Source of the DNA: a virus | Direction: 5' to 3' (one strand) | IMG/VR virus record: IMGVR_UViG_3300037557_000128 | Coordinates: 15,349-79,348 of that record | DNA: 64,000 nt | Shown: positions 35,393-59,291 of the stretch, piece after piece | Numbering within the stretch: the first letter of the stretch is position 1 | Layout of the letters: the number at the start of each line of letters is the position of its first letter | Notes under the pieces: model-generated | The model's database searches: none | The model's input: only the letters and a program-made list of their open reading frames with translations | What the model was told of the DNA's origin: nothing | Translations under genes and position numbers: made by a program

Positions 35393-35393
35393 A

Positions 35394-35963: not shown

Positions 35964-35997
35964 AATAATTTTCCTATAATCTCTCTATTATACCATA

Positions 35998-37551: not shown

Positions 37552-38412
37552 TTAACTTGTAACTGGTGTAGCAGGCCATTGTTGAGATAGTGTACTATCC
37601 CACCTAATGACTGGTGTTCTACCTTGTCGGGCATAAGTTCCAGGCGTCCTATGTTGATATGTGAACGGTGTCTGACCTTGTCTTGCATATGTGCCAGGCG
37701 TTCTATGTTGATAAGTCGTTGGTGTTTGACCTTGTCTAGCATATGTACTTGGTGTTCTATGTTGATAGGTAAATGGTGTTTGACCTTGTCTCGCATATGT
37801 GCCAGGCGTTCTATGTTGATATGTAGTAGGTGTTTGACCTTGTCTAGCATATGTGCCAGGCTGTCTGTTTTGATATGTAGTAGGTGTCTGACCTTGTCTA
37901 GCATACGTTCCTGGCTGCCTATTACTATATGTAAATGGAGTCTGTCCTTGTCTCGCATATGTTGTAGGTTGACTAGCAATATATGGATATGGATTTTGTC
38001 TATTCGCAATATAAGGTTGTTGTCCAGCTACAGGATTCCTATAGGTAAATGGACTCCTATTATTATATGTGAACGGACTCTGACTATTACTAGGTTGTCT
38101 TGCGTTCGCAGGATACCTTGCGTTATATGTGAATGGACTCTGACTATTACTAGGAGACTGTCCATTAGCAGGATACCTTGCGTTATATGTGAACGGTTGT
38201 CTCGCATTACTAGGAGACTGAGCATTCGCAGGATACCTTGCGTTATAGGTATACGGAGTCCTTGCGTTATAGGTAAATGGACTCTGACTATTACTAGGAG
38301 ACTGTCCATTAGCAGGATACCTTGCGTTATAAGTTCCAGGCTGCCTAGCTGAAGCAATGGCAGGTTGCTGGGTATTAGCGATTACTGGTTGTTGTGCTTG
38401 TCCGATTGCCAT
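37552..38412 (-). CDS. Pro/Tyr/Gln/Arg-rich repeat protein 'B' (partner of 38412-39863)
   Basis: 286 aa, almost all repeats; no K, E or C and one D; coupled to upstream stop. Confidence 0.85.
   Translation of the reverse strand: MAIGQAQQPVIANTQQPAIASARQPGTYNARYPANGQSPSNSQSPFTYNARTPYTYNARYPANAQSPSNARQPFTYNARYPANGQSPSNSQSPFTYNARYPANARQPSNSQSPFTYNNRSPFTYRNPVAGQQPYIANRQNPYPYIASQPTTYARQGQTPFTYSNRQPGTYARQGQTPTTYQNRQPGTYARQGQTPTTYQHRTPGTYARQGQTPFTYQHRTPSTYARQGQTPTTYQHRTPGTYARQGQTPFTYQHRTPGTYARQGRTPVIRWDSTLSQQWPATPVTS
37612..37968 (-). repeat. 54-bp coding tandem repeats (PGTYARQGQTPxTYQHRT, about 6.5 copies)
   Basis: Recurrent gcatatgtgccaggcgttctatgttgat / gtttgaccttgtc. Confidence 0.9.
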
Positions 38413-39863
38413 TATCTTTTATTCCCCCCGCCGTTATGAACTAACACACCTTCTGTAAAGTATGTTTTAGTGTGTTCAACGGAAGTTAAATGATAGACTG
38501 TAGCAGTTCCATTTTCTGTTATGGAGTTAACTGTTACCCCTGATTGACCAACTGTAAAGACTTCGTCTCCTACTGCGAGTTCTCCACTTAGTTCTATTCC
38601 CCAATCAACGTCTTTTAACTCAATATCACACTCTTCCTGATTCGCATATTTCCAACCTGAATCAGTGTGTATTGGGTGTCCACCTGTTACACCTAGTGTT
38701 TTTCCATTTGATAATTCTACGTTCCAAACTTTTATGTTTTCTCTTGGAACCATGACCTCAGTAACATTCTGAGGCATAAGTTTACCATGACTAAAGTCAA
38801 ATGTCATTACTGCATCTCCAACATTAACGTTTTCTATGTTCATATGATTGTTATCAGCCATCAAAATTTGTGTTCCAGCAATGAAACACCCACCACCACC
38901 GCCACCATACGGATAAGTGTATGGATTACGATATGCATACGAAACTGGTGTCCTCTGTTGAAAGGTAAATGGATTCTGACTGTTTGCTATATAAGGAACT
39001 CTGTATGTAAATGGGTTTCTATATGTTCCAGGCTGTCTTGCATTAGCAATGTATGGTTGTCTTGCGTTTGCGATATAAGGAACCCTGTATGTAAATGGGT
39101 TTCTATATGTGAATGGATTTCTTGCATTAGCAATATAAGGAACCCTATATGTAAATGGGTTTCTGTATGTTCCAGGCTGTCTTGCGTTTGCGATATAAGG
39201 AACTCTGTATGTAAATGGGTGTCTGTATGTTCCAGGCTGTCTTGCGTTTGCGATATAAGGTTGCTGTGCGCTTACAGGACTTCTATAGGTAAATGGATTC
39301 CTGTTTTGATATGTACTAGGTGTCTGACCTTGTCTTGCATATGTTGTAGGTTGACTAGCAATATACGGATAAGGTTGTTGTGCATTAGCAATATATGGTG
39401 TTTGATTGCTCGCAATATACGGATAAGGATTTTGTCTATTCGCAATATATGGAGTCTGATTACTTGCTATATACGGGTAAGGGTTTTGTCTATTCGCAAT
39501 ACTTGGGGTCTGATTGCTTGCTATATACGGGTAAGGTTGTTGAGCGTTCGCAATACTTGGAGCTTGAGCATTTGCTATATAAGGGTACGGATTTTGTCTA
39601 TTCGCAATACTTGGGGTCTGACTATTAGCAATGTATGGATAAGGTTGTTGTGCGTTCGCAATACTTGGAGTCTGACTATTAGCAATGTATGGATAAGGTT
39701 GTTGAACTGAAGTCTGACCCGAAGCGTTATTCCAAGTGGAAGGCCCAGTCTTTACATAAACCTGTTCTGCAGCTTTCCAAGTCGTTCCACCCGTCTTTAC
39801 CCACGCACCTTGTGTGGCATTCCAACCTGTAGGTGTTTTGACGTGTTGTTTTCCTGTTGCCAT
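38412..39863 (-). CDS. Repeat protein 'A' with N-terminal VKTxxxW domain and C-terminal Hint domain
   Basis: WVKTGGTTWK/VYVKTGPSTW; repeats aa 56-318; G6 linker; CFIAGTQI...VLVHN. Confidence 0.88.
   Translation of the reverse strand: MATGKQHVKTPTGWNATQGAWVKTGGTTWKAAEQVYVKTGPSTWNNASGQTSVQQPYPYIANSQTPSIANAQQPYPYIANSQTPSIANRQNPYPYIANAQAPSIANAQQPYPYIASNQTPSIANRQNPYPYIASNQTPYIANRQNPYPYIASNQTPYIANAQQPYPYIASQPTTYARQGQTPSTYQNRNPFTYRSPVSAQQPYIANARQPGTYRHPFTYRVPYIANARQPGTYRNPFTYRVPYIANARNPFTYRNPFTYRVPYIANARQPYIANARQPGTYRNPFTYRVPYIANSQNPFTFQQRTPVSYAYRNPYTYPYGGGGGGCFIAGTQILMADNNHMNIENVNVGDAVMTFDFSHGKLMPQNVTEVMVPRENIKVWNVELSNGKTLGVTGGHPIHTDSGWKYANQEECDIELKDVDWGIELSGELAVGDEVFTVGQSGVTVNSITENGTATVYHLTSVEHTKTYFTEGVLVHNGGGNKR
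38433..38888 (-). other. Hint (intein-like) autoprocessing domain, no homing endonuclease
   Basis: Cys1 block CFIAGTQILMAD...IENVNVGD, TGGHPI (TxxH), VYHLT...YFTEGVLVHN. Confidence 0.85.
39375..39698 (-). repeat. 54-bp coding tandem repeats (PYPYIANSQTPSIANAQQ, 6 copies)
   Basis: Recurrent ttcgcaatacttgg..tctga / ggataaggttgttg. Confidence 0.9.
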
Positions 39864-44390: not shown

Positions 44391-46031
44391 TTAGAAAGTA
44401 CCGCCGTCTAAAGCTGTTATTGCGACTGCACCTGAAGTTACCGTGAAGTTTGCAGAAGCAAAACTTGCGATACCTTTATTAGCAGTAGTTGCATCCTCTC
44501 CTGAAAGAGTAGCAGTACCACCTGAGTACGCAACGTCCATACCTTCTCCAACTGCGATAATTACAGAACCTAGATTTGAAGCACTGGATACTTCAGTTGC
44601 AATTGTAATTGCACCTGCACCGTTAGTGATGTCGATTCCGTCACCAGCAGTAAGTGTTGCTTTATCAAAAACTCCACCCGATGTATCACCAATTAGTACC
44701 TGTCCGTCTGTAGGAGCTCCACCTGCATAAGATGAGATAGAACCCGTGATTGCAGCTGAACTGATTTCTAATGCACCAAATACAGCAGGCATCGCTGTTC
44801 CTGAGAACACTGATGAAGTATCTGTTGCACTTGTAAGAGCGACAAATTTACCTGTTGAATCGTCCATACCAAAGAAACCAATTTTAGCACCACTAGAGTT
44901 GTACTTAAATTTGATACCTCTGTCTAAGTTATCATCACTTGAATCAGAACCGATTTCGAATACTGGGTCTGCGATATTAACTGTAGTAGAGTTAACTGTT
45001 GTTGTAGTTCCATTAACTGCCAAGTTACCTGTAACTGTTAAGTTTCCTGAAGTAGTCAACGTTGCCGTTGTAATATCATCAGTTACCATGTTTCCACTTA
45101 CTGTTAAGTTTCCACCAACTGTTACGTTGTTAGGTAGACCTACTGTAATAGTTTGTCCACTTGCACTTGTTTCAATTTCGTTCGCTGTACCAGCGATTGT
45201 TAATGATTGAGAGTCTAAATCTACTGCACCTGTTCCTGAATCACCAGCGACATCTAAGTCTTCTAGTGTTGCAGTTGCTTGGATTTTGTCCAAGATAGCT
45301 GCAGAAGTCATAACGGTTGTATCGTTATCTGCGAATGCTTCACCTGAAGTCTGAACTAAAGCGCCTGCTAAAGAACCGAATACAACTGCAGAAGCTGCTA
45401 ATTCGTCAGCACCGACAGCGTCGTCTGCTAACATAGCATTCTCTACTGCACCAGCAGCGATTGTTAGAACACCAGTGTCTGCCATAGTAGCATCACCTGA
45501 CATTATATTATCTATCCATTTAGACGTTCCTGTATCGTATAACATCATTGAACCGTCAGCTGGTGTTGTTAGATTAGTATCTGTTGCACCTGCGACTGTT
45601 GATGTTGTTGATAGGAATGAAAGGGTTCCTGAGCCGTTGGTTCCGATAACTTGGTTAGCTGAACCATCAGCAGAAGGCAATGTCCAAGTTACACTTGAAC
45701 CTAAAGTATCAGCAGCTTTTAACGCAACAAAATTTGTTCCGTTATCTGAATCTTCTAAAAGTTGAAGACTCGCACCTGCAGTTGCACTATTACCAACTTT
45801 AAAGTTGGCAGGAGTTGCACTTGAACCAGCAAGCATATCTGTATAATACTTACCACCAATCGCTTGGATTAATGGAGTAGAGTTATCAGAATCTACTGAC
45901 TCAATGTATAGTTTTGCCCCAGCACCACTATTCGACCTATCCTGTACATATGCTAATTCGCCTTCTGCTAGATTACTCGTAGCTGGCGCACTAGAACCTG
46001 TACTTCGTTTGATTTGAATTACTGTTGCCAT
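44391..46031 (-). CDS. Tail fibre protein with Mtd_N-like N-terminus
   Basis: MATVIQIKRS...LAEGELAY; GNLTVTGNLAVNG repeats; ends LDGGTF. Confidence 0.8.
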   Translation of the reverse strand: MATVIQIKRSTGSSAPATSNLAEGELAYVQDRSNSGAGAKLYIESVDSDNSTPLIQAIGGKYYTDMLAGSSATPANFKVGNSATAGASLQLLEDSDNGTNFVALKAADTLGSSVTWTLPSADGSANQVIGTNGSGTLSFLSTTSTVAGATDTNLTTPADGSMMLYDTGTSKWIDNIMSGDATMADTGVLTIAAGAVENAMLADDAVGADELAASAVVFGSLAGALVQTSGEAFADNDTTVMTSAAILDKIQATATLEDLDVAGDSGTGAVDLDSQSLTIAGTANEIETSASGQTITVGLPNNVTVGGNLTVSGNMVTDDITTATLTTSGNLTVTGNLAVNGTTTTVNSTTVNIADPVFEIGSDSSDDNLDRGIKFKYNSSGAKIGFFGMDDSTGKFVALTSATDTSSVFSGTAMPAVFGALEISSAAITGSISSYAGGAPTDGQVLIGDTSGGVFDKATLTAGDGIDITNGAGAITIATEVSSASNLGSVIIAVGEGMDVAYSGGTATLSGEDATTANKGIASFASANFTVTSGAVAITALDGGTF

Positions 46032-46174
46032 TTTTATATTTCCTATAAAATTAAATTATTGTTGTGACCTTGCACTATTCAGGTCGTGATTACATTATAA
46101 ATTTAACAGTCCACTCACTATGTGGGTCGATACCTCACTGGTTGGTATCCTTGATGTTTGTACTAGTATTTAGA
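46032..46174 (-). promoter_or_regulatory. Late promoter plus three-hairpin 5' leader
   Basis: TCTAAATA 46167-46174; three stems whose loops all contain AGTG. Confidence 0.55.
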
Positions 46175-46191
46175 CAATTGAAATGCCTACA

Positions 46192-46575
46192 TTAGAATCT
46201 TTTGTACCATGCGAAGCCATTATGTGTTACCACAAATGCCTGAGTACCATTCAACCACTTGAGAGCTTTCTCTCTATCAACATCATCTCTATCTAACAGA
46301 TTGTAGATAATTGCATTGCCCACGAGTTTAAGAGCAATTAGATCATGCTTCTCAGGTCTTTTACCTAATATTGGATTCTTTTCTACGAGTGGACAGTGTG
46401 GTCGTTTCTGACAATCTATCATTCTTATTGTCTGAATTGTGTCGATTGTAGATAAGGCTATATAAGAATGCCAAAGCTTTCTTTCTTTTTCAGTCCAGTC
46501 TTTTGATTTTGCGTTTAAAGGTTCGCAGCTACCAGCTGCAGACACAAGAAGCAATATTGTAAATATCCATTTCAC
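46192..46575 (-). CDS. Exported/membrane protein (DUF5658-like)
   Basis: Signal-like MKWIFTILLLVSAAGSC; IDTIQT...EKNPILG. Confidence 0.6.
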   Translation of the reverse strand: MKWIFTILLLVSAAGSCEPLNAKSKDWTEKERKLWHSYIALSTIDTIQTIRMIDCQKRPHCPLVEKNPILGKRPEKHDLIALKLVGNAIIYNLLDRDDVDREKALKWLNGTQAFVVTHNGFAWYKRF

Positions 46576-46591
46576 TCATTTTCTTCCTATC

Positions 46592-46834
46592 TTAAAAAGT
46601 ACCGCCGTCAAGGTTAGTAGTGGTTTCCCACTTATCAGTTGTTGCATTATATGTCAAAAGTCCGTCATCTGTTTCAGAAGCGTTTACATCTGCTAACTCC
46701 TGAATAGATTTCGCAGCTAAACTAACAGTCGTATTTGCGTTACCAATTGCGACTTGTTTTGCACGAACATTTCCTGCCCCAACAACGTTTCCGCCTATAG
46801 TTGCGACTCTACTTAATGTTCCTTTAATTGCCAT
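46592..46834 (-). CDS. Small fibre adaptor protein
   Basis: IQELADVN...DDGLLTYNATTDKW; ends LDGGTF. Confidence 0.7.
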   Translation of the reverse strand: MAIKGTLSRVATIGGNVVGAGNVRAKQVAIGNANTTVSLAAKSIQELADVNASETDDGLLTYNATTDKWETTTNLDGGTF

Positions 46835-46838
46835 AATA

Positions 46839-47177
46839 TTACCTCGTTACGCCTGGTGTTACAATTGCTTGTCCCTCTACTACTCTAGTAGATATACTTG
46901 AAGCGTCTGTTACTATCAAGTCATATACATATCTGCCTGGCGATAATGCCTTAGTTATTGTATCTGTTAAGGACAAAGTTACCTGACCATCTGTTGTTGG
47001 ATTTGATATAGCTGTGGTGAAAGTTGCACTAAGTGTTGAAGACTCATAGGTCTTTCTTATTTGTGCAGCCGCAGTATATCCCGCTAAATTTAACTGATTA
47101 CCATTTACATCAGATACATCTACAGTTATTGAGAAATCTGCGCCTTGGTCTATAAAAATATTTGCAATAATGGCCAT
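46839..47177 (-). CDS. Conserved virion protein (BppU/Ig-like fibre anchor)
   Basis: IDQGADF...LAGYTAAAQIRK...GRYVYD...RVVEG...VTPGVTR. Confidence 0.75.
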   Translation of the reverse strand: MAIIANIFIDQGADFSITVDVSDVNGNQLNLAGYTAAAQIRKTYESSTLSATFTTAISNPTTDGQVTLSLTDTITKALSPGRYVYDLIVTDASSISTRVVEGQAIVTPGVTR

Positions 47178-47195
47178 ATTACTATTTAGTCCAAA

Positions 47196-47912
47196 TTATG
47201 TTTGATACTGTGCCGAAGGAACAGATTGGTGAATTTGTTTTACAGTAGGTGTTCCATCGTTCACATAAACTTTATCCAACTTCCTTAAAGTTCCACCATC
47301 ATTCACGAATACCCCTTTAACTTTTGCAAGAGGCCCAATAGTTCTAGTTGTTGGATAAGTTACCTGATATGCATACGGTTGTTGGAATGTGTACTGTGTC
47401 GTATAGGGAACCTGATAAATGTTTGGTTGTCTTGCTTGTGCGATATAAGGTTGTTGTCCACTTACAGGACTTCTATAAGTTGCAGGCTGTCTGTTTTGAT
47501 ATGTAAACGGAGTCTGACTATTTACAGGACTTCTATAAGTTCCAGGCTGTCTTGACTGATATGTTCCAGGCTGTCTTGCCTGTGCAATATATGGATACGT
47601 TACTTGCCCTTGTCTAGAATATGTAAATGGTAATCGTCCCTGTCTTACATATATGCCTGGCTGTCTCGCTTGACCAATAGACGGTTGTTGTCCAGCTACA
47701 GGACTTCTATAAGTTCCAGGCTGCCTTGCTTGTGCGATATAAGGTGTCTGACTATTTACAGGACTTCTATAAGTTCCAGGCTGTCTCGCATTACCAATAG
47801 ACGGTTGTTGACCACTTACAGGGTTTCTGTAAGTGTTAGGTTGTCTCGCATTACCAATAGAAGGTTGCTGTCCAATTGCAGGGTATGGATATGGTTGTTG
47901 TCCTATAGGCAT
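47196..47912 (-). CDS. Repeat protein 'D' with C-terminal VxVND domain (partner of 48666-49628)
   Basis: Repeats aa 7-187; C-terminus KVKGVFVNDGGTLRKLDKVYVNDG; own late promoter at 47958-47965. Confidence 0.85.
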   Translation of the reverse strand: MPIGQQPYPYPAIGQQPSIGNARQPNTYRNPVSGQQPSIGNARQPGTYRSPVNSQTPYIAQARQPGTYRSPVAGQQPSIGQARQPGIYVRQGRLPFTYSRQGQVTYPYIAQARQPGTYQSRQPGTYRSPVNSQTPFTYQNRQPATYRSPVSGQQPYIAQARQPNIYQVPYTTQYTFQQPYAYQVTYPTTRTIGPLAKVKGVFVNDGGTLRKLDKVYVNDGTPTVKQIHQSVPSAQYQT

Positions 47913-48664
47913 TACGCTACCCCCAAATAGTCTACTTGTTTTGCTTGTTTGACTTCATATTTATAGTTATTACTCCAATTATTTGGGTGCGACTCTTTTA
48001 AACTCTTAATATGATTTTTCGGGAATACATAACATACGTCCATGTTCCAAGCTATAATACTTTTACGTTCATTCGTTTCCATTTTAGGGGCACGGTGTAA
48101 TAACCAAGAAGGGAATATAAGCATATCTCCTTCCTCAGCTTTAGGTTGTATAATTTCTTGCGTTTCAGGATTCAAAAATTCTGTAATATACTTTTGATTT
48201 GGTACTTCTATAAAATATACTGCTGACCATTGACACCATTGATGATTATCCCAACTGATATAATCTGATTGAAACATTTGGTGATACCACATATGCATAA
48301 TATTAAATTTATATTCTAAACCAGTAATTTCTGGCTGTATATGAAACCTTGCGTGGTCATGAAATTTATTCTCTACAGCATCTAAGAACATTTTCTTATA
48401 TTCTATATGAGGATACCCCTTTACATTCATATCCCATTCATCAATATCTCCACTACCACCAGTATAATCATTAATTGAGTCTTGGTATTGCCAACCTGTT
48501 GGTAAGATAGGGGAAGAAGGGTGGTTATGCCCATCAAATTTAGTAATTCCTAAATTATAATCTTGATTACCAATTTGAGTAGGTAAAGCGTCAAAGAAAT
48601 CTAAAAGACTCTTATTAAGTTCTTTATGATTATCAATCGTATATTTGTATATTAAATTATTCAT
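47912..48664 (-). CDS. Putative 2OG-Fe(II) oxygenase (TIGR02466-like)
   Basis: MWYHQM...WDNH...WSAVYFI...EEGDMLIFPSWLLHRAP...RKSIIAWN. Confidence 0.8.
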   Translation of the reverse strand: MNNLIYKYTIDNHKELNKSLLDFFDALPTQIGNQDYNLGITKFDGHNHPSSPILPTGWQYQDSINDYTGGSGDIDEWDMNVKGYPHIEYKKMFLDAVENKFHDHARFHIQPEITGLEYKFNIMHMWYHQMFQSDYISWDNHQWCQWSAVYFIEVPNQKYITEFLNPETQEIIQPKAEEGDMLIFPSWLLHRAPKMETNERKSIIAWNMDVCYVFPKNHIKSLKESHPNNWSNNYKYEVKQAKQVDYLGVA

Positions 48665-48665
48665 G

Positions 48666-49628
48666 TTAACCTAGTAAAGCAAAGTACAAAGATGCACCAT
48701 TACTATTCGGAATATAAATCGGGCTGCCTACAATGGCACCTTGAGATGCCCCAGTATGATGAATACCGCCAGTAACAGTAAAATCTGTGGTTCTTGTTAA
48801 TGTAGTATAATTTGAAGAACTTGACCCGATCCGACAAGTTGTCCAGTTAGTGTTAAGACTACTCCAAGATAATTTTAATCCACCACCGTCACGATGAGAA
48901 TAAACAGTTAAACCATCTCCATCTAGACTCAAAGCTGGAGACATATTTGTTGCTTGAAAATAAACACTAATCTTTCCGCCAGGTTCATATCTAGTAACAT
49001 CTCCATTCGAAGTGAATGTGTAAATGTAAGGTTGTGTCCCTGTTGCTTGATAGGTAAATGGCGACCTGTGATTATATGTAAATGGAGTCTGACTATTTAC
49101 AGGACTTCTATAAGTGAACGGAGTCCTGTGATTATATGTAAATGGAGTCTGACTATTTACAGGATTTCTATAAGTTCCAGGCTGTCTTGCCTGATAGTTA
49201 AACGGAGTCTGACTATTTACAGGATTTCTATAAGTGAACGGAGTCCTGTGTTGATAGGTAAATGGAGTCTGACTATTCGCATTGTAAGGATACGGTTGTT
49301 GGTCGCTAGCAGCATACGGATACGTTGCTTGAGCTTGTCGTGCATATGTAAATGGAGTCTGACTATTAGCAATATATGGAGACTGACTGTTTACAGGATT
49401 TCTGTAAGTGTTAGGTTGTCTTGCGTTTGCGATATAAGGTGTCTGACTATTTACAGGATTTCTATAAGTGAACGGTGACCTGTGAGCGTAAGTGAACGGA
49501 GACTGCTGACTTGCATTTCCTTGTGCATCATATTGTGCAGTAATAGGAGCAGTTCCAATCGCAGGTTGTCTCGCAATATACTGTTGTTGAAAACTAGTAC
49601 CAGTGTTTATAAATATTTCTTTAGACAT
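48666..49628 (-). CDS. Repeat protein 'C' with ~115-aa globular C-terminal domain
   Basis: Repeats aa 22-200 (TYRNPVNSQTP etc.); non-repetitive C-terminus. Confidence 0.85.
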   Translation of the reverse strand: MSKEIFINTGTSFQQQYIARQPAIGTAPITAQYDAQGNASQQSPFTYAHRSPFTYRNPVNSQTPYIANARQPNTYRNPVNSQSPYIANSQTPFTYARQAQATYPYAASDQQPYPYNANSQTPFTYQHRTPFTYRNPVNSQTPFNYQARQPGTYRNPVNSQTPFTYNHRTPFTYRSPVNSQTPFTYNHRSPFTYQATGTQPYIYTFTSNGDVTRYEPGGKISVYFQATNMSPALSLDGDGLTVYSHRDGGGLKLSWSSLNTNWTTCRIGSSSSNYTTLTRTTDFTVTGGIHHTGASQGAIVGSPIYIPNSNGASLYFALLG

Positions 49629-49637
49629 AACATAATC

Positions 49638-50873
49638 TTATATGACGAACCATAAGTGTCCTGTCGCAGTACTACCAACACCGCCTGGTGCTGAATTTAC
49701 AGTTTCGTAATCGAGTTCAATTTTTCCACTGTCAATAGTTAGTCCGTTTGCATGGTCTGTTTTTATTACTCCACTAGAACTGTTATAATCTATACCGTCT
49801 CCACCTGACAATGCGCCTCTAGCATCTGCTTGTGTAAATGTTGCAGCTGGGTTTGAGTTTGTCCATGAACCGCCTCCTACAGTAGTCCAAGATAATACTT
49901 GTCCCGAAGAGGGTGTTGCACTTGCACTTACGTTTGCTAAATTCTGAAGACTGTGTCCAGTTATAGCTGCAGTTGTCGAAGAAGTTGTCGCATTACCTGT
50001 TAAGGCACCAACGAATGTTGTTGAGGTTACACTGGTCAGACCTGTAAAAGTTGTCGCAGTAGCACCCAAAGCAACTGTAGTTGAACCTATAGTAACGTCA
50101 TCGTTTGCTAATCCGCTGTTTGGTATATTTTGAAAAGTGTTATTCGAACCACTCAGTGTTTTATTGGTCACTGTTTGAGTAGAGTTTAAGTAAACACCAT
50201 TTGTTACCGTGTCTGCATTACCGTTTAAGTCTCCAACAAATCGTCCACTTCCACTTGTAGTGACACTCTTATTGTTTGCAAATAACATATCACCTTCTGA
50301 GTATGTCTTACCTGCAAGTTGAATAGTGTATCCACTTTGTAGTTCTACTGTTTGGTTGGGAGAACCATCTCCATTTAAAATAATACCTGCATCATTAAGG
50401 TTATAAATTGTTTCAGCAGCTGTTTCTGTCCAGTGTCCACCACCACCAGCAGTACCATCAGAAGTCCCTAAGTATGAACCAGTAAATGCATAGACAATAA
50501 CAATATCACCTGCACTCGCAGCTGCAGTCAAAACCATATTTGTATAATTTCCTGCAGTATCAGCACCAGTAATGTTAAAGTTTGTTCCTTCTATTAAATG
50601 AACACCATTTTTAAATACTTGAAGTCTATCTTTTCTTAATTTAAGGTGGTTTCCTGCACTATCAGCACCAGTAAATGTTGTTTGAGCTGCAGTTGCAGTA
50701 TAAACAAACTCTTGAAAGAAGAATGCTTTATCTTCTAAACTATTAAGTGCATCAATTACTGTTGCAGTATTAGTTGTTCGTAGGCCAGTCTTGTCCCCTA
50801 CATCTATTGCAAGTTCGTTGTACTTCTTTCTGAAGTCTTCTATTGTACTGAATTGGTCTACTGTTTTAGCCAT
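49638..50873 (-). CDS. Fibre/whisker protein
   Basis: STIEDFRKKYNEL N-terminus, VFKNGVHL domain, TVTNKTL, C-terminal NSAPGGVGSTATGHLWFVI. Confidence 0.75.
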   Translation of the reverse strand: MAKTVDQFSTIEDFRKKYNELAIDVGDKTGLRTTNTATVIDALNSLEDKAFFFQEFVYTATAAQTTFTGADSAGNHLKLRKDRLQVFKNGVHLIEGTNFNITGADTAGNYTNMVLTAAASAGDIVIVYAFTGSYLGTSDGTAGGGGHWTETAAETIYNLNDAGIILNGDGSPNQTVELQSGYTIQLAGKTYSEGDMLFANNKSVTTSGSGRFVGDLNGNADTVTNGVYLNSTQTVTNKTLSGSNNTFQNIPNSGLANDDVTIGSTTVALGATATTFTGLTSVTSTTFVGALTGNATTSSTTAAITGHSLQNLANVSASATPSSGQVLSWTTVGGGSWTNSNPAATFTQADARGALSGGDGIDYNSSSGVIKTDHANGLTIDSGKIELDYETVNSAPGGVGSTATGHLWFVI

Positions 50874-51090
50874 TTACCTTCTCTATTAATGTATGTAATA
50901 AATTTTTAATTTCACTTACTTCATCCTTTAATGTATTTATCTCGTTCTTCTGAACCTTAAATGTTTCTCTTCTTCTTTTATGTAGTTCATAAGAACTCAT
51001 ATCGTTACTTACTATTGCAGTTGAACTCTCATCTCTAAGTAAATTTGAGTGTCCCTCTACTTGAATATACCGAGTCTTAACTGTTGCCAT
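50866..51090 (-). CDS. Conserved small coiled-coil protein
   Basis: VEGHSNLLRDESSTAIVSND...EINTLKDEVSEIKNLL; start MATVKT. Confidence 0.75.
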   Translation of the reverse strand: MATVKTRYIQVEGHSNLLRDESSTAIVSNDMSSYELHKRRRETFKVQKNEINTLKDEVSEIKNLLHTLIEKVNG

Positions 51091-54000
51091 TATGCAATCG
51101 CAATACACCTAAGTGCAGATACCATTGGTACTACTGATGTATTTGTTCCTTGTCCTACTATTTTAATTGAGAATGCACTGAACTCGTTTAAGTCGTCTGT
51201 AGTGAACTCATATTCTTTAAAGTTTCTCGCATCTGCTTCTGTTGTTGTATCAGGAGCACCTGTAGTGTTGAAATACTTCCAACCCAAATCATCAAACGGT
51301 GTTTCGTCATCATTATTAAGAACTTTATATAAAACTTTTAATTCTGTTGTTGGTGGTCTAAAGAAGTCTGCTGTTACTCTCAGTCCTTGTGCAGGAGTCT
51401 TTAAAGACACTTTTCTAGTGATGTATGTCATAACATTACTATCACCGTCAGGTTGCGTAGAATCGATATATGTGGTTCCTGTAGGTACATCTGAAGAACT
51501 ATCAATATTATTGATTCTGTTCATAATACCTAAACCACCAATTGTTGCAACATCTATAACAGGTGATATATTAGGATTATTGGAATATAATTGCAGTCCA
51601 ACTTCAAATGATTTAACACCACTCATGTTGTTCGTTTCATTAATTGGTGATGCAATCACACTTGGGTGCGAGAACCATGAGTTATCATTTAACGTAATGG
51701 GTTTTGATGTAGTGCCTTTAGTGTAAACTGTTCCACTTATAGAACCTTCAGGTGAATACATTGGAGTAGTTTTAACTGTTGCACTTATCTTAGTTCCTTG
51801 TGCAGAAATATTAGGTATCATTGTGTGTAGTGTATCAAAGTAAAAATCTCTTGTTGCTGTAACACCACCAACAACTATTTGTTGATTGTAAGTGGCACTG
51901 TCAGAATCATCATCTTTAGCCCATTCCCTTTCTCCACCACCTACTGTTGATGCAGTTGCAGTGTAACCAGTTTTAAAGTTGTATGCAGACAATGAAGGAG
52001 TTACGCAGAATGTATCTATTCCGATATTCTTCAATGCATTGAATGATGCGTTTATAGCGTCAACTGGCATTCCACCTAGTGTATCACCAACTGAATTTAT
52101 TGCAACAGCTAAATCACAAGCACCATTATAGTTTGTACATACTGCGTTGTTATCAGTTGTTTTGTATCCTGAGCCAGGATTTGTGATTTTTGTTACAATA
52201 GATGAACCTGAACTTGATACTACAATTTCAACCGTCATACCCGAACCTGATCCACCTGTAACTGCAGGAGTATATGTTCCGTCTGCAGGAGTTCCGCCAC
52301 TGTTTGTTGCAGTTATTGTTAATACTGAACCTGTAGTGTCCCCTTTTACATTTGCAATTGTAGTGCTTGAACTAGTGTGATACATACCGTGTGAGTAAGC
52401 ATAAACTTTAACATAGTCTTGACCTGAGAATGTTTGTATTGGATTATCTTGTATTATCTGAGTAGGTATGGCCGCATTGTCAAAAGAGACATAAGGAATC
52501 TTAGTTGTATCAAATACACATCGTTTCAAATGGAATTTTAAGTCGTCTGTTTGTTCTGCAGTCCATGTACTGTTATTTTGTGATTTAAACAATGAACCTG
52601 CGTATGGTTGTTCTGCGATTGTTTGTCCTGTTGCAAGGTCTTTCTCACCCATTCTTGATACAAAACAGTTGTACGAATCTGAGTTAGTGTAAACTACGAA
52701 ACAATACTCGACCCCATCGTCCAAGTATACAGGTGATTCGAAAGTAAATGTTGTTGCAGTTGAACCATCTGTTGAAGTGTTGACATCAGCAGGATTCTTT
52801 GTTATAGTAGAGAATGGTACTACTACATTTGCAGGATAACCATTATGCATTGTTCTGATTTCTACAGAAACAGGCAAGGTGTCATCTTTAGTTTGGAAGT
52901 ATAAGTCTACTGAAGACATAAACATACCACCAGTTGAATCTATTAAGAATGATTGTGCAAGTGGGTCTCTCCAACCTCTCATTTCTCTGAAATCCATCCA
53001 TCTATCAGGTTCCCATAAATCCATTTCATCAAGAGCTCTGCCTGGGCCACTAGGTGGGGCAGGCGGGAACCCACCACCTGTAACTGGATCAGGTTCCGTT
53101 GTATCAACTGGAATTGGTGGTGCATCTTCGTCTACTGGGTTTACGTTTATTGATTCCCCTCTTGAAATTATGTCTCTTTGTTCATTCATTTGTTCGTAAA
53201 CAACTCTACCATTTCTTGTAGAAGTAATTTCGGTTTGAGACGATTGCAATAGTCCTTGTGCTTGATAAACTTCAGCACAAGCAGATGCAGGGTTAGGTAA
53301 GTTATAAAAACTTGAAGTTACTCTCATTTCTCTCATACCAGTTGCAAAGCTTTGCGTAGGATTATTAGGTAATTCAAAGTATGCTCTTATTCTACCTGCT
53401 CCATCTGTTTTACAATGTGAACCAACTGAGGTTCCATTGTCTTGTGAATATGTTGTACTGAAAGGTCTAACATATGCATTTACATCTATACTATCAAAGA
53501 AGAAGTAATGGTTTGTGTTTGGTTTTAAGTTTTCACCGTCAAGTGTAATTGTTCTTGCTCTACAGAAAGGAATAAGAGTAACACTTACTATTCTATCCCC
53601 TCTAGTTTCAACAAAGTCCTCTACGACACTTGTTGTTACACCTGTTCTTGTTTGTGTTTCTACAGTTTCAGTAATCTCTCTAGTTACTTCTTCACCTGCT
53701 TGCCACTCACCACCTTGTGTTGGGTCTCCTGACCAAGAACCATTTGAAGTTGACTGAACTTCAGTTGATACTACAGTAGGTTCTCCGACCCATGTTGTTT
53801 GCCATGCGTTCCAAACTGTTCCTAATGAATTTTCTACTGTAGACTTAATTGCATCAAAGTTACCTTCTCTGTTAATTCTTACTTCAGGAAGTTGTGTAGT
53901 GTCATGCCATATATCTGTTGCAGGCGATAACTTAAGTGAACCCATGAATGAGAATACACTATAAGGGTTAACATTACTTATTCTAGAAGCTTTATCTGCG

Positions 54001-57000
54001 TGTACAAAGGTTGATTCTGTATATGGTAGTGTAATTAAATCACCAGTCTTCTGATAACTGGTAGAAGAAGAAGTGTTTAACTCAATGTCAAAGAATGATT
54101 GATAAGATTGTGGTCTCATTGCACCCGCTTTAACATCTATCGCACATTCGTAATCAGGGTGGGTTACATCACCAACCCTATGTCCTCTGAAGTTATCCAC
54201 TAGGAAACCTGATTTAAATCTATCAAATCCGTCTCCATCTAAAATCTGTTTTGTTTGAGTGTCTCTTTCTAGTAAAGATAGAGAAGTAACTCTTTCTAGG
54301 TTAGTAACCCTGTTATTAATTCTACCAATATCACTCATGGTAAATCTACGGTGGTCTTTAGACCTAATTCTTATGTTCTTTAAATTCTTTGTGAAAGGTG
54401 GAATGTAAAGGTCAAACATTTCAATACTGTCATCGACTGATTTTGGTTTAGTTGGTGATAATGCAGGTGTTCCTTCCGATATTTGGAACTTACCTGATTT
54501 ATGTAAGAACACTTTATCATATCTACCAACGTAGAATGATATATCACCCACCACACTTGACCCTGATACTGGCATATCGTTTGTGTTTGTATTAGTCTCA
54601 GCAATACCTGTTCTTGCACCTAAGAAACTTCTACCTGTAGTATACCCGAATGGTGAGTAAACAGCACCGTTAGTGCTATGTGATAGGTCTACTGGGTTTG
54701 TTACGTCTTGTGCGTTGTTAGAACCAAAAGTAGTTGTTCCAATAATTTGTCCTACAACTGGTCTAAAGTCAACACAATCTGAAAGTTCAAATGTTCCATC
54801 AGGTTCTAAACCACCTAAGTCCACTCTACTTGGTGAATATACTGGTATATCTTTATATTCTATCGCATTATATGAAGATACATCAAAGTAATCTCCTGCA
54901 CCTGAAGGTGTGAAATAATCAAATACTATTAGAATTTTATTATTTGGTTTTGGAGCTCCAGTCTTTAATGTTAATTTCCCAATGTCATAGTATCCGTCTC
55001 TTTGACCATTGTCAAAGAAGTATCTTGACATAATATTTTGTCCACCTGCAGTTACATTACTTAATGTTGCAATTGCATTTGAAGTCTGACCAACCACATT
55101 TTCAGTATTTACTAATGTTCCTGAGATATAGTAGAAGTATGTTGTTCCACCAGTTGCAATAATAATTGCGTGTGCGTTAGAAGTTTGACCTATAACAGTT
55201 TCATAGTTTACAAAAGAACCTGAAGAAACTGTAAATGTTGCACTTGGTGGTAATGGTGTAGTTGCACCACCTGTTGCTTCATAAATTCCTCGAATCTTAT
55301 GTACGTCTGCAACACCTAGTGATATTTCTTCATCGTCATATGCAGTTCCGTAGTATCCATTGGCAACCCTATTACTTTCTACTCCAAGACATCTTGCACT
55401 TCTTAATGTCTTACTTCTTGAAACTGGGTCTACAACATTTGCAGTATATGTAATCTTAAGAACTGCATCATTATTGTTTACGTTTATATTACTAACTGCT
55501 AATGTTTGACCTGAACCACCACCTGAACCACTTACGTTTGTGGTCATATCTTCTATGTTTAGAAGGTCTCCTTTAGAGAAACTTCCACCAGCTTTCTCTT
55601 CTGCAACTGCGATTGTAAAGTTATCAGTATTTAAAGCAGCAAAAGTTCCGTTACTAATTGAAATTGAGAAAGCACCTGAACCAATCTCTACAGTTGTTTG
55701 TCTTCTTATTTGTATTGATTCACCATTGTGGGTTTTAACCCAATCTCTTGGCCATGATGCAATTGCAGCTGTTTGGTCTTGATTGAATACTCTTACCCTT
55801 CTTCGTGTACAATTTGCGTTGGTAAGGTTATTACCAGTTCCACCAATAGTAGCGGCTATATCACTTGTTATTGATGCAACCACTCTTTCAACAGGCGGAA
55901 CTGCCCCATCCATAATGATGTCGCCTTCTTTAAGTTGTGTAGTAAATTTTGTTCCGAAACCTGTAAGAGCAGTATTACCAGTAATAGTACAACTACCTGT
56001 TAGTGTATTGTCTTGGTCTGCATAAATGTCTGCAGTAAAGATTTCTCTTGCACCATTAAGAGGTGTTTGTGTAACTGACCTTGCACGGTCAATATTATAT
56101 GTTCTAACTGCAGTAACGTTTGCGATTACAGCAGTATCGTTTTTTCCGACTGCTGATATAGCATCTGCAGCTGTAAATGTTCCTACAACGTCATGAACTA
56201 ATATAGATGCAGCTCCAGCGGAAGCTGCAACTGCGACTATCCCTGTTGCACCTGAAATAGAACCTACAACCTTATCACCTACAGCAAAAGCTGCAGTTGC
56301 AGTTGTACCTGTAATCTTTGTAAACATCTTAATATCGAAAAGGTACAGTTGGTGTCTAGATGCATCAGTATAAATTCCTGAAGAAGATGTACCAGTATCT
56401 AAATCGATATTTCTTACTCTTGCAAGTCCAATCTGACCTGAAGTAGGTTTAGTTCCACCTACAGGACTGGTCACTGGAATTGTAGAATCCCATATCTCTA
56501 TTGGTTTAAATGGTTCAGTACTATCTTCTCCACCCTCATTTCCAAACTCAGGAAGTGAGTGTGCATTTTTAATCTTAATGTAATTACCTATTCTAACAGG
56601 AGTATTTGCGTTGTCTAAGCTTGTTGCATCTCTTGCTTTCTTAAATGCAATTGTTGATGTTCCAACTTTATCAATCTCATATCCTTTAACATATGCTTTA
56701 CCTGGCGACACTTGCATAACAAATCTATCTTCAGTTCCACCATTTACTTTAGTGTAGAAACCTCTGTTTGTAGTGTCGTCTAAGTGTTCTCTTAAACTAT
56801 GCGTGAATTGTTGTGTAACGAAATCACCACTCGCATCGAATGTTCTTCGTGCCATTGTGTTTTCGATTGCACCGTAAATTGGTTTGTTGATTGCGATTTC
56901 AATAATACCTTTATTGACTCGAATCAATTCAACGAAATCTGTATCGTCTGTAGTAGTAAGTGAGTACTTACTTAATGCTAACTCTATTTTTAATCTATCT

Positions 57001-57818: not shown

Positions 57819-59291
57819 TTACATTTCAATGATTAACTTAATGTCTTCGATTTGGTCTGCCGCTCTTGTTACTGCACCCCTATTCTCGATATACATTATC
57901 TGTCCTGAATTTTTTACTAATTCAGGGAAGGCTGCATTCACACTTGATACAGTTCCTTTGTTTGAACTTCCCAAGAAAACATTATTTGTAGCTGCAAAGT
58001 TACTAAATCCACCTGCACTATCAGCGATAGGTATATGAGAAACTACATTTCCAGTAATAGAAACTATTCGAGAATTTTTAACACCTGATGCATCTGCGTT
58101 TGCACTTCTAATAACATCGTCAACCGATAAGCCTGATGCATCTGATACAGTCATTTGGTGATAAGCTGCTAGTGAAGTTGCAGTCGCAACTGTTGTTCCA
58201 GTTGAGAATGGGTCTTGAAGTAAACCAATTCGTCTGAAGTCGTTATCAGTTGGGAAATCTCCACCACCTTCACCGAACTCTAATCTTGAGTTTACGATAA
58301 CGTGGTTTCCACCCATTTCTTGTATTGGGTCTGCACCGTGTCCGTATTGAGGTGATATTACAACTTTAACTGTTGCACCATTACCACCACCAATTCCTGA
58401 TAATCCTGTCGTAGTTGTTGCAATTATTATTTGTGCTTCTGTATATCCTGTTCCAAAAGCTGCATTTGTTCCTGTAAATGTAACGTGGGTTACTTTACCA
58501 CCTGCGATAACAACAGTTGCTTTACCACCTGAACCATTACCGACTACTGCAACTTCGTTATAAGTGTTGTTATTGTAACCTGAACCTTCATTGGTAACAA
58601 TTGCGTGGTGACAACCACCATTTACTGCACCATTCTCAACGTCCCATTGTGAAGAACCGTCATTTGTTGCAGTTGTTCCTAATGCACCACTAGCACCGTC
58701 TACTGTAGCCAATGCACCGATTGTTTTAACTGGGATAAAGTCATTAGTTACGAATTTAATTGTATCTGAGGCAGTTACAGTATACATATATTTCCAAAGG
58801 TAACCATACATGGTAGCACCAGTGTCTGAGGTTTCAACTAATGCAGTTGCACTGGTTCCTGTTGGTTTAACAGTTGATGCTACAGTTGTACCACCAGTTG
58901 CTCTTCCTGTTCGAATACATTTATAAACATGATACTCATCAGTCATTACATAGAATCTTGATGCGTATAAAGATGTTGCAGAAGTAGAACTAGATGTGTT
59001 AGATGCACTAATGTCATGTGCATACTCATCATACTTAACTCCTGAAGTCCAATCGTATCTTGTTAATCCATGTGACACATCAGCAGTACCAACTTTTTTC
59101 AATGCAGTCATGTCTGCCCATGCATCAACTTCCTCTGAAGTTCCGTTAACTGGTGTTGGTGGTGAAGTGTCTGTCGGCCACGAATGTGAACGTCCTATAA
59201 ACACATATGTTGAAGAAGCACTTTCTCCAAAATCTTCTTTGAATTGTTTAGCGTTATGTACTCTAAACTTTTCGGTAATAATTGCTGCCAT
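57819..59291 (-). CDS. gp8: Baseplate wedge subunit
   Basis: AIITEKFR...RYDWTSG...YHVYKCI...GYLWKYMY...YIENR...QIEDIKLIIEM. Confidence 0.9.
   Translation of the reverse strand: MAAIITEKFRVHNAKQFKEDFGESASSTYVFIGRSHSWPTDTSPPTPVNGTSEEVDAWADMTALKKVGTADVSHGLTRYDWTSGVKYDEYAHDISASNTSSSTSATSLYASRFYVMTDEYHVYKCIRTGRATGGTTVASTVKPTGTSATALVETSDTGATMYGYLWKYMYTVTASDTIKFVTNDFIPVKTIGALATVDGASGALGTTATNDGSSQWDVENGAVNGGCHHAIVTNEGSGYNNNTYNEVAVVGNGSGGKATVVIAGGKVTHVTFTGTNAAFGTGYTEAQIIIATTTTGLSGIGGGNGATVKVVISPQYGHGADPIQEMGGNHVIVNSRLEFGEGGGDFPTDNDFRRIGLLQDPFSTGTTVATATSLAAYHQMTVSDASGLSVDDVIRSANADASGVKNSRIVSITGNVVSHIPIADSAGGFSNFAATNNVFLGSSNKGTVSSVNAAFPELVKNSGQIMYIENRGAVTRAADQIEDIKLIIEM

What the first reader, a model, noticed from the sequence alone, without database searches (positions are those of the whole stretch)
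47196..49628. Second pair obeys the same antiparallel complementarity code (172 residues)
Seen in sequence (spacing plus Pro+3 residue): C (48666-49628, P28-P200) reversed is 10Y,8Y,6S,6Y,8Y,6S,6Y,8Y,6S,6Y,8Y,(8A+2),(8A+12Y),8A,6S,6Y,8A,6S,6Y,8Y,16. D (47196-47912, P7-P179) forward is (2+2+6G),8G,6Y,6G,8G,6Y,6S,8A,6Y,6G,8G,10Y,(12Y+8A),8Y,6Y,6S,8Y,6Y,6G,8A,(6+10). Every block has equal length, every scored Tyr segment faces a Gly/Ala/Ser segment, and both total 172 aa. The pattern differs from pair 1, so the rule replicates with a different 'barcode' that could stop A/D or C/B mispairing. Inference: a second, shorter (about 58 nm) filament.
Basis: partly seen in the sequence, partly recalled or inferred. 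Interest (0 to 1): 0.93.

Follow-up and report, generated by a model that had tools for sequence, protein, structure and literature searches.

The report
Mirror-matched two-protein phage fibre, pair two
Two neighbouring genes of an uncultured marine T4-like phage encode repeat proteins whose proline spacing is the exact mirror image of each other, a rule kept in dozens of related gene pairs and in natural single-chain fusions, so the two chains most likely zip head-to-tail into a thin fibre of a design not described before.

Summary
C (P28-P200) read backwards and D (P7-P179) read forwards have the listed Pro spacings and Pro+3 residues, both spanning 172 residues. One gapless antiparallel register puts 22 prolines opposite prolines, with 28 aromatic/small and 1 aromatic/aromatic facing pairs.

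This pair alone is weak evidence. Its 8-6-6 unit is nearly palindromic, so parallel C-D (19 Pro matches) and antiparallel C-C or D-D (20 each) score almost as well.

The family evidence is strong:
- Among 43 non-redundant adjacent gene pairs from viral contigs, antiparallel beats parallel in 42.
- The register always places the downstream protein's C-terminal motif at the same N-terminal position of the upstream protein.
- Repeat lengths co-vary from about 170 to 540 residues.
- At least 14 protein clusters are natural single-chain fusions with two equal arms.

The best reading is an antiparallel C+D beta-ribbon fibre shaft in the phage's host-recognition gene cluster. No structure prediction confirmed it, and stoichiometry is unknown. 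The "barcode" claim holds against pair 1 but does not exclude C-C or D-D pairing.

This scan has already noted the same mirror rule on other genomes. I found no published description.

The parts
48666..49628 (-). Gene C (320 aa), the upstream 'X' member of pair 2
   Evidence: ORF. Six full-length orthologues at 55-62% identity.
49566..49628 (-). C N-terminal motif (residues 1-21, MSKEIFINTGTSFQQ...), conserved in all C/D-type X proteins
   Evidence: BLAST aligns it with D's C-terminal hairpin motif KGVFVNDGGTLRK.
49029..49547 (-). C repeat region P28-P200 (172 residues, Pro spacing always even, mostly 8-6-6 units)
   Evidence: AlphaFold2 leaves it unstructured when C is folded alone (pLDDT about 30).
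48669..49028 (-). C C-terminal domain (residues 201-320), a predicted small beta domain and the presumed distal tip
   Evidence: Conserved in orthologues and in a 159-aa protein of L009. AlphaFold2 pLDDT 50-80, all beta. No clear fold match, Z at most 4.2.
47912..48664 (-). 2OG-Fe(II) oxygenase gene inserted between C and D. Its start lies 1 nt after C's stop, and its TAA stop overlaps D's ATG (TAATG).
   Evidence: PF13759 at 39.7 bits against a cutoff of 27, and phrog_81 at E=1.7e-25. Junctions read.
47958..47965 (-). T4-type late-promoter-like TATAAATA, 46 nt upstream of D's ATG, inside the 3' end of the oxygenase gene
   Evidence: The window holds 16 copies against 6.3 expected.
47196..47912 (-). 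Gene D (238 aa), the downstream 'Y' member of pair 2
   Evidence: ORF. Relatives found in 79 viral loci.
47376..47894 (-). D repeat region P7-P179 (172 residues)
47199..47375 (-). D C-terminal domain (residues 180-238), with two xVxVNDxGT hairpin motifs and HQSVPSAQYQT
   Evidence: Invariant block in alignment A2. In the Pro-derived register its start faces X residue 13-14 in 22 of 27 C/D-type pairs.
49638..50873 (-). Upstream fibre gene (411 aa, ends ...GHLWFVI). The same gene precedes the X gene in relatives.
46839..47177 (-). Downstream LtfC-like small protein (tail-fibre assembly family), syntenic in relatives
   Evidence: phrog_1084 and phrog_3304 at E=1e-25 to 1e-28. Synteny.
38412..39863 (-). 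Protein A (pair 1 X member, 483 aa, C-terminal Hint domain), used here as a comparison
37552..38412 (-). Protein B (pair 1 Y member, 286 aa), used here as a comparison

Best explanation
C and D are the two chains of one fibre shaft. Their 172-residue repeat regions lie side by side in opposite directions as long extended beta strands.

Inferred geometry:
- Every proline sits opposite a proline, on the face whose backbone groups point away from the partner. This costs no inter-strand hydrogen bond and caps the ribbon's free edges.
- On the other face, a Tyr or Phe of one chain sits opposite a Gly, Ala or Ser of the other.
- The conserved end is built jointly from C's N-terminal hairpin motif and D's two C-terminal hairpin motifs. 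It presumably docks on the preceding fibre protein.
- The variable end carries C's C-terminal beta domain beside D's N-terminus. It is presumably the distal tip.

Shown: mirror spacing, length matching, a fixed end register, obligate gene pairing and natural fusions.

Inferred: the beta-ribbon geometry, the number of ribbons per fibre (possibly three), the length of about 58 nm, which end is proximal, and any role of the intervening oxygenase in modifying the chains.
For: 1. Exact mirror spacing and equal 172-residue spans in C and D.
2. Antiparallel C-D gives 28 aromatic/small and 1 aromatic/aromatic facing pairs. Parallel gives 12 and 15.
3. In 43 non-redundant adjacent X+Y pairs from viral contigs, antiparallel Pro matches exceed parallel in 42. 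They exceed X-X or Y-Y self-pairing in 37 each (Wilcoxon p<1e-6). Up to 70 of 73 prolines match over about 520 residues (L041). The cognate partner ranks first for most pairs.
4. The register derived from prolines alone puts the start of the Y C-terminal motif opposite the same X position: 11 of 11 A/B-type pairs and 22 of 27 C/D-type pairs. Y length ranges from 236 to 559 aa across these.
5. The X residue facing Y's residue 1 lies within 12 residues of the composition-defined end of X's repeat in 26 of 31 C/D-type pairs and 8 of 12 A/B-type pairs (r=0.75 and 0.997). Related phages show compensated length changes, for example L041 to L069 (+16 in both) and L073 to L067 (+36 in Y and in the register).
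6. Natural fusions: L080:4278-5807 sits in the same syntenic slot, and at least 14 protein clusters carry the X N-terminus, two repeat arms and the Y C-terminus in one chain. Their best self-mirror centre gives equal arms of 210/214, 212/217, 225/230, 194/198 and 272/276 residues.
7. AlphaFold2 on the fusion P0029 is low confidence (mean pLDDT 37). Its only long strands are mirror-symmetric N- and C-terminal arms: 14-38/416-440, 44-49/405-410 and 53-77/377-401.
8. No DNA inverted repeat explains the mirror, and C and D are ordinary parallel paralogues at 47-49% identity. The mirror therefore cannot come from duplication or gene conversion.
9. The genes lie in a late structural operon between a DUF4815/VrlC-like protein and the neck gene. 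This is the 'host recognition cluster' described in PMC7029224.
Against: - For this particular pair, antiparallel homodimers fit almost as well: C-C gives 20 Pro matches with 24 aromatic/small and 2 aromatic/aromatic pairs, and D-D gives 20 with 22 and 2.
- A subgroup of C/D-type pairs (L064, L071, L075, L082, L087) shows only 29-37% Pro matches in a single gapless register.
- The L059 X protein has one extra 20-residue unit that is not compensated in Y.
- The aromatic/small rule is an enrichment, not unique to the chosen register; some shifted registers score as high.
- The strand register in the AlphaFold2 fusion model (i+j=454) is two residues off the Pro-Pro register (456).
- There is no experimental or confident computational structure. 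The family was not found in any cultured phage, so no virion proteomics exists.
Confidence: 0.7

Rival explanations
1. C and D each form their own antiparallel homo-oligomeric ribbon, giving two separate fibres or whiskers. Their adjacency reflects shared regulation, not hetero-pairing.
For: C-C and D-D antiparallel registers give 20 Pro matches and 22-24 aromatic/small pairs with only 2 clashes, nearly equal to C-D. D has its own late-promoter-like site.
Against: - In the family at large, hetero pairing beats self pairing in 37 of 43 pairs, and A-A is very poor (0 aromatic/small pairs, 111-residue overlap).
- X and Y always occur as one of each. They have different, complementary end motifs and matched lengths.
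- Single-chain X-Y fusions exist.
Confidence: 0.1
2. C and D run parallel in one ordinary, for example trimeric, phage fibre or beta-helix. Their equal lengths simply reflect a shared shaft.
For: Phage fibres are usually parallel trimers (general knowledge). C and D are parallel paralogues at 47-49% identity. The parallel register still gives 19 Pro matches.
Against: - Parallel is worse than antiparallel in 42 of 43 pairs.
- Parallel C-D gives 15 aromatic/aromatic and 16 small/small facings.
- In A/B-type pairs the 18-residue and 20-residue zones lie at opposite ends of the two chains.
- The hairpin end motifs sit at X's N-terminus and Y's C-terminus.
- The fusions have mirror-symmetric arms.
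Confidence: 0.08
3. The repeats are disordered, Pro-rich spacers or decorated 'hairs', possibly hydroxylated or glycosylated by the neighbouring enzymes, with no defined pairing. The mirror pattern is a by-product of near-palindromic repeats.
For: - AlphaFold2 predicts no structure for C's repeat alone.
- A 2OG oxygenase sits between C and D, and more oxygenases plus a GT8-like domain lie beside pair 1.
- For C/D the mirror signal is barely above the palindromic background.
Against: - Strictly even Pro spacing over hundreds of residues, a fixed end register and length co-variation over 170-540 residues are not expected of disordered spacers.
- In long A/B-type pairs 94-96% of Y prolines match, against about 65% in the parallel register.
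- The oxygenase is not linked to the pairs in other phages.
Confidence: 0.07

Closest known systems
Needle domain of the T4 long-tail-fibre tip, gp37 (Bartual et al. 2010, PDB 2XGF; cited from memory)
   Same: It is a very thin phage fibre segment made of long, nearly straight antiparallel beta strands that run out to the tip and back. Small and large inward residues alternate.
   Different: - gp37 is a homotrimer in which each chain makes the turn itself.
- It is held by His-x-His iron sites.
- It is about 100 residues per arm, and it has no proline register.
- Here the out and back strands are two gene products (or a fusion), there are no HxH motifs, and arms reach 170-540 residues.
- No sequence similarity was found.
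Adenovirus fibre and reovirus sigma1 triple beta-spiral shafts (cited from memory)
   Same: They are repetitive 15-20-residue units with Pro or Gly at fixed positions, and they build a thin viral attachment fibre whose length is set by repeat number.
   Different: Those are parallel homotrimers with strand-turn-strand units. Here the even Pro phase runs uninterrupted through the whole region, and the matching partner is a second protein read in reverse.
Side-by-side heteromeric fibrous proteins with a pairing code: heterodimeric coiled coils and the antiparallel spectrin alpha/beta dimer (analogy, cited from memory)
   Same: Two different chains of matched repeat number associate laterally, and register and partner choice are encoded in a periodic residue pattern.
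   Different: Those are alpha-helical. This one has beta-strand periodicity (period 2, Pro every 6-10 residues). No beta-strand equivalent was found in the literature searches.
Two-protein chain-like fibres of Pseudomonas podophage A1002 (PMC13730344)
   Same: It is a phage fibre built from more than one gene product.
   Different: There, globular dimers are strung along a rope protein. There is no lengthwise strand-to-strand zipper and there are no mirror repeats.
Chlorovirus PBCV-1 prolyl 4-hydroxylase with viral Pro-rich repeat proteins (Eriksson et al. 1999; cited from memory and named in earlier scan note e1-5826796)
   Same: A virus encodes a 2OG-Fe(II) oxygenase together with proline-periodic repeat proteins.
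   Different: The oxygenase here belongs to PF13759, of unknown substrate. It lies between X and Y only in this phage, and no hydroxylation has been shown.

Membership tests
Mirror-matched X/Y repeat-protein pairs of marine T4-like phages (unnamed family defined in this scan) | Adjacent same-strand genes: X (N-terminal motif, repeat, variable C-terminal domain) followed by Y (repeat from about residue 7, conserved C-terminal motif) | tested here: met
   C and D have the C/D-type end motifs. The one deviation is an oxygenase gene between them.
Mirror-matched X/Y repeat-protein pairs of marine T4-like phages (unnamed family defined in this scan) | A gapless antiparallel register with Pro opposite Pro, anchored at X N-terminus / Y C-terminus, with equal repeat lengths | tested here: met
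   22 matches. D's C-terminal motif start faces C index 13, as in 22 of 27 relatives. C's repeat end lies 3 residues from the position facing D's Met1.
Mirror-matched X/Y repeat-protein pairs of marine T4-like phages (unnamed family defined in this scan) | Physical hetero-complex of X and Y | not testable with these tools
   See Tried and rejected for the complex-prediction job. Co-expression is needed.
T4-like phage tail-fibre / host-recognition-cluster structural genes | Location in the late structural operon between the VrlC-like gene and the neck gene, with late promoters | tested here: met
   DUF4815 protein at 51090-57770, gp8 at 57819-59291 and the neck protein at 29814-30671. TATAAATA sites. 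Layout as described in PMC7029224.
T4-like phage tail-fibre / host-recognition-cluster structural genes | Presence in virions | not testable with these tools
   No cultured phage with these genes was found.
T4 gp37-type needle | Periodic His-x-His metal sites and sequence similarity to gp37 | tested here: not met
   There is no HxH periodicity in the C or D sequences, and no Pfam hit to fibre-tip families.
Collagen-like triple helix | Gly at every third residue (Gly-X-Y) | tested here: not met
   Pro spacing is 2, 6, 8, 10 or 12 and always even, and Gly is not periodic at 3.
Curli / functional amyloid repeats | Strand-loop-strand units with conserved Ser/Gln/Asn/Gly ladder motifs and no regular proline | tested here: not met
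   Proline occurs every 6-8 residues, and there is no curlin Pfam hit.
Hint / intein-like autoprocessing domain at the C-terminus of X | Cys-start Hint fold ending in His-Asn | tested here: not met
   C has no Hint hit. Protein A and the C-type X proteins of L010 and L023 do.
2OG-Fe(II) oxygenase, PF13759 (middle gene 47912-48664) | Profile match above the Pfam gathering score | tested here: met
   39.7 bits against a cutoff of 27, and phrog_81 at E=1.7e-25. The substrate is unknown.

The most novel reading that the evidence does not exclude
X/Y pairs are a new class of fibrous protein. The proposed form is a heteromeric antiparallel beta-ribbon.
- Its register, partner choice and length (170-540 residues, roughly 60-180 nm) are written in a readable residue code.
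- In that code Pro faces Pro, Ile faces Arg, Gln faces Thr, Phe faces Gln and Tyr faces Gly/Ala, with Arg-Arg never seen.
- One phage can then carry two orthogonal fibres (A/B and C/D).
- New partners could be designed from the code, as for coiled coils.
- In Hint-bearing members, the autoprocessing domain sits exactly where the partner's N-terminus ends. It may trim or even join the two chains.
Probability: 0.45. Interest if true: 0.92.

Novelty: categorically new. Interest (0 to 1): 0.8.

Why it matters
If the two chains really zip antiparallel over their whole length, this is a fibrous-protein principle with no described counterpart. It is not a coiled coil, collagen, a beta-helix, a triple beta-spiral or an amyloid. 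Its register and length are encoded in a simple periodic pattern that evolution has scaled three-fold in length and also fused into one chain.

- It would explain conserved but unannotated genes in the host-recognition cluster of abundant uncultured marine T4-like phages.
- It would give a testable model of how one phage keeps two fibre systems from mispairing.
- It would offer a designable beta-strand pairing code.

For this specific finding, the value is that the rule replicates in a second, differently patterned pair in the same genome. The caveat is that this pair's pattern is nearly self-complementary.

Tried and rejected
- **Complex prediction, C 18-215 with D 1-195.** No verdict (score 0.00, partner pLDDT below 50). 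I do not count it either way.
- **AlphaFold2 of C alone.** The repeat is unstructured. Only the C-terminal domain folds, with modest confidence.
- **Fold search of that model against 48,161 PDB representatives.** Best Z is 4.2, for a phiKZ baseplate chain and generic beta-sandwiches. No usable match.
- **AlphaFold2 of the natural fusion P0029 with a 43-row alignment.** Mean pLDDT 37. I use it only as a weak hint.
- **tblastn against 50,697 cultured-phage records.** Queries were D, D's non-repeat C-terminal domain and A's N-terminal domain. No match. BLAST's low-complexity filter may hide hits within the repeats.
- **blastn of 46000-51000.** Only a 51-nt tail-fibre hit.
- **Literature searches.** No description of such pairs.
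- **DNA inverted repeat as the source of the mirror.** Rejected. Only 20-22-nt imperfect arms were found, and a reverse-complemented Pro codon would not encode Pro.
- **Oxygenase as an obligate partner.** Rejected. Its 65% orthologue in L009 sits beside an ATP-grasp gene with no repeat pair, and none of the other pairs has a gene of that size between X and Y.
- **Composition-run length measure.** It failed for C/D-type proteins because scattered Asp/Glu/Lys break the runs. I replaced it with the measure.
- **Segment-shuffle null.** Judged too lenient for periodic repeats. The parallel, self and non-cognate controls carry the weight.
Full report
**Setting**

The window is part of a 79-kb IMG/VR viral contig rated about 44% complete. 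All genes in the region are on the minus strand. The layout is T4-like:
- a gp8 baseplate gene (57819-59291);
- a 2226-aa DUF4815/VrlC-like protein (51090-57770);
- a run of fibre genes;
- a neck protein (29814-30671).

This is the hypervariable "host recognition cluster" described for pelagimyophages and cyanomyophages (PMC7029224). The T4 late-promoter motif TATAAATA is over-represented, with 16 copies against 6.3 expected. It occurs 38 nt upstream of gene A and 46 nt upstream of gene D.

The nearest cultured relatives by a head-scaffold protein are Methylophilales phage Melnitz and Synechococcus myophages, at about 40% identity.

**The observation**

C is 48666-49628(-), 320 aa. D is 47196-47912(-), 238 aa.

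In the register where C residue i faces D residue 207-i:
- 22 prolines face prolines over 173 positions;
- 28 facing pairs are aromatic against Gly/Ala/Ser, and one is aromatic against aromatic;
- D's first residue faces C residue 206, where C's repeat gives way to its conserved C-terminal domain.

**How strong is this pair by itself?**

It is weaker than it looks. C and D are ordinary parallel paralogues (47-49% identity) built mainly of one 20-residue unit: an octad, a Tyr hexad and a small-residue hexad. Read backwards, that unit is nearly itself.

| Pairing | Pro-Pro matches | Aromatic/small | Aromatic/aromatic |
|---|---|---|---|
| C-D antiparallel | 22 | 28 | 1 |
| C-D parallel | 19 | 12 | 15 |
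| C-C antiparallel | 20 | 24 | 2 |
| D-D antiparallel | 20 | 22 | 2 |

- The hexad part of "Tyr faces small" is automatic in any antiparallel pairing of such units.
- Both proteins have small-type octads in their N-terminal half and Tyr-type octads in their C-terminal half, so each is also self-complementary.
- What the pair does show on its own is antiparallel rather than parallel packing.
- It also shows a poor fit to pair 1. A-D and C-B give 13-15 matches and 5-9 aromatic clashes, with lengths of 258 against 172.
- Shuffling D's segments gives at most 17 matches in 300 trials, but that null breaks the periodicity and is lenient.

**Family evidence**

A search of viral contigs with an alignment of D and two relatives returned 79 loci. 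Wherever the contig allows, the proline-repeat proteins occur as an adjacent pair on one strand. The upstream X protein has a variable C-terminal domain, and the downstream Y protein's repeat starts near residue 7.

Forty-three pairs are non-redundant by proline positions. They fall into two types:
- **A/B-type.** X has an N-terminal triple "VKT...GW" motif, and Y ends in "RWDG..QQWP".
- **C/D-type.** X starts "M-S-D/K-E-I-Y/F-V/I-N-T-G-T", and Y ends in two "VxVNDxGT" hairpin motifs plus "HQSVP.AQ".

Across the 43 pairs:
- A single gapless antiparallel register beats the best parallel register in 42 pairs.
- It beats X-X or Y-Y self-pairing in 37 pairs each.
- In long A/B-type pairs, 94-96% of Y's prolines face an X proline over as much as about 530 residues. 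L041 has 70 of 73, against 50 in parallel and a shuffle mean of 26.
- The cognate partner ranks first among all partners for most pairs.

**Two checks that do not reuse the proline count**

First, the proline-derived register always puts the start of Y's C-terminal motif opposite the same X residue. This holds in 11 of 11 A/B-type pairs and 22 of 27 C/D-type pairs, including C/D, although Y length ranges from 236 to 559 residues.

Second, the X residue that faces Y's residue 1 coincides with the end of X's repeat as defined by composition alone. It lies within 12 residues in 26 of 31 C/D-type pairs and 8 of 12 A/B-type pairs, and within 23 residues in all A/B-type pairs (r=0.75 and 0.997).

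So repeat lengths are matched from about 170 to 540 residues. Related phages show compensated changes, for example +16 in both chains from L041 to L069, and +36 from L073 to L067.

The end motifs also fit. C's N-terminal "KEIFINTGTSFQQ" aligns with D's "KGVFVNDGGTLRK". In A/B-type pairs the distribution is three copies on X and one on Y. This is as expected if X's N-terminus and Y's C-terminus form one joint end structure.

**Natural fusions**

L080 sits in the same syntenic slot, after a fibre gene ending GHLWFV and before the LtfC-like gene. It encodes a single 510-aa protein with the X-type N-terminus, two repeat arms around a Pro/Gly-rich middle, and the Y-type C-terminus.

A database search found many full-length relatives. 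At least 14 clusters carry both end motifs. In most of them the best self-mirror centre gives equal arms of 210/214, 212/217, 225/230, 194/198 and 272/276 residues. A fused chain whose two halves mirror each other and whose ends meet is most simply a hairpin.

AlphaFold2 on one fusion with 43 aligned sequences was of low confidence (mean pLDDT 37). Its only long strands are three mirror-symmetric N- and C-terminal pairs, and their register is two residues off the Pro-Pro register.

**Why the mirror needs selection**

Both genes are on the same strand. No significant DNA inverted repeat links them, and a reverse-complemented Pro codon does not encode Pro. Duplication and gene conversion give parallel similarity, which is present but fits worse as a pairing. 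I see no explanation other than physical antiparallel apposition.

**Likely mechanism (inferred)**

- Strictly even Pro spacing puts all prolines on one face of an extended strand.
- In a two-stranded antiparallel ladder, residues of one parity point their backbone NH and CO away from the partner.
- Prolines placed there, opposite each other, cost no inter-strand hydrogen bond. They also cap the free edges, which is a known negative design against edge aggregation (Richardson and Richardson 2002, from memory).
- The other face is aromatic, with Tyr or Phe facing Gly, Ala or Ser.
- Pooled facing-pair counts over 20 pairs show strong, chemically sensible preferences. P-P is 625 against 208 expected, I-R 243 against 58, Q-T 406 against 128, F-Q 270 against 36 and G-Y 185 against 65. 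R-R is 0 against 41 expected. Repeats and relatedness inflate these numbers.
- Whether one ribbon or several (for example three around an axis, as in the gp37 needle) make the fibre is unknown.
- A span of 172 residues at about 0.33-0.35 nm per residue gives 57-60 nm if fully extended.
- C's variable beta domain would sit at the tip beside D's N-terminus. The conserved joint end would dock on the virion or on the preceding fibre protein.

**The oxygenase**

A PF13759 2OG-Fe(II) oxygenase gene is wedged between C and D with coupled stop and start codons. None of the other pairs has such an insertion. Its 65% orthologue in L009 lies beside an ATP-grasp gene without repeat proteins. A role in modifying C and D is possible but not supported by linkage.

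**Prior art**

I found no Pfam family for the repeats, no cultured-phage homologue and no paper describing such pairs. Earlier notes of this scan on other genomes (e1-5879396, e1-5826796) reached the same mirror-pair reading. My tests are independent of them and agree.

**Verdict**

- The antiparallel two-chain fibre is the best-supported reading, at about 0.7.
- The "barcode" idea holds between pair 1 and pair 2 but not between C and D themselves.
- Direct structural proof is missing.

Noticed in passing
window 38412-39863 (-), residues about 320-483: Protein A carries a C-terminal Hint/intein-like domain directly after a GGGGGG|C junction. In the antiparallel model this lies beside B's N-terminus. 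Some A-type relatives (L067, L073, L081) lack the Hint domain and simply end shortly after a poly-Gly run, as A would after self-cleavage. C-type X proteins of L010 and L023 also carry a Hint domain.
   Followed up: partly
L080:4278-5807 (+), and proteins P0028, P0029, P0047, P0050, P0055, P0121 and others: These are natural single-chain fusions of the X and Y members: X N-terminus, two mirror arms around a Pro/Gly-rich middle of about 80 residues, and Y C-terminus. L080 sits in the same syntenic slot.
   Followed up: yes
L009:2255-2734 (+): A free-standing 159-aa protein shares C's C-terminal domain (TDWTS... and ...YIPNSxG.S motifs). It sits next to an ATP-grasp gene and the 65% orthologue of the C/D oxygenase, in a phage locus without repeat pairs.
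   Followed up: partly
window 31828-37518 (-): Downstream of pair 1 lies an enzyme cassette. It contains a 506-aa protein with a GT8-like glycosyltransferase part, a 2OG-FeII_Oxy_3 protein (34682-35392) and a second PF13759 oxygenase (31828-32577), plus unknown proteins. With 47912-48664 the window holds three 2OG oxygenases.
   Followed up: partly
L064, L071, L075, L082, L087 (C/D-type pairs): This subgroup has only 29-37% of prolines matched in one gapless register. In four of them the end register is shifted by 8 residues. This suggests bulges or inserts that break the single register, or a looser version of the rule.
   Followed up: no
L059 compared with L041: The X protein of L059 has one extra 20-residue unit at the distal end with no matching change in Y, so length matching is not absolute.
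   Followed up: partly
window 46192-46575 (-): This 127-aa ORF has a signal-peptide-like start ending in a possible lipobox (…LLVSAAGS|C). It may be a phage lipoprotein inside the fibre gene array. It has no Pfam or PHROG hit.
   Followed up: no
window 49638-50873 and 39917-41875 (-); L010, L012, L080: Each repeat pair is preceded by a fibre gene whose product ends in a shared G(H/D)LW motif (…GHLWFVI, …GDLWVLYS). This ending is conserved in relatives and may be the docking site for the pairs' joint end.
   Followed up: partly
L041, L047, L072, L085 and relatives: In several A/B-type loci, X and Y are separated by a spacer of about 280-330 bp instead of overlapping. I did not examine its content.
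   Followed up: no
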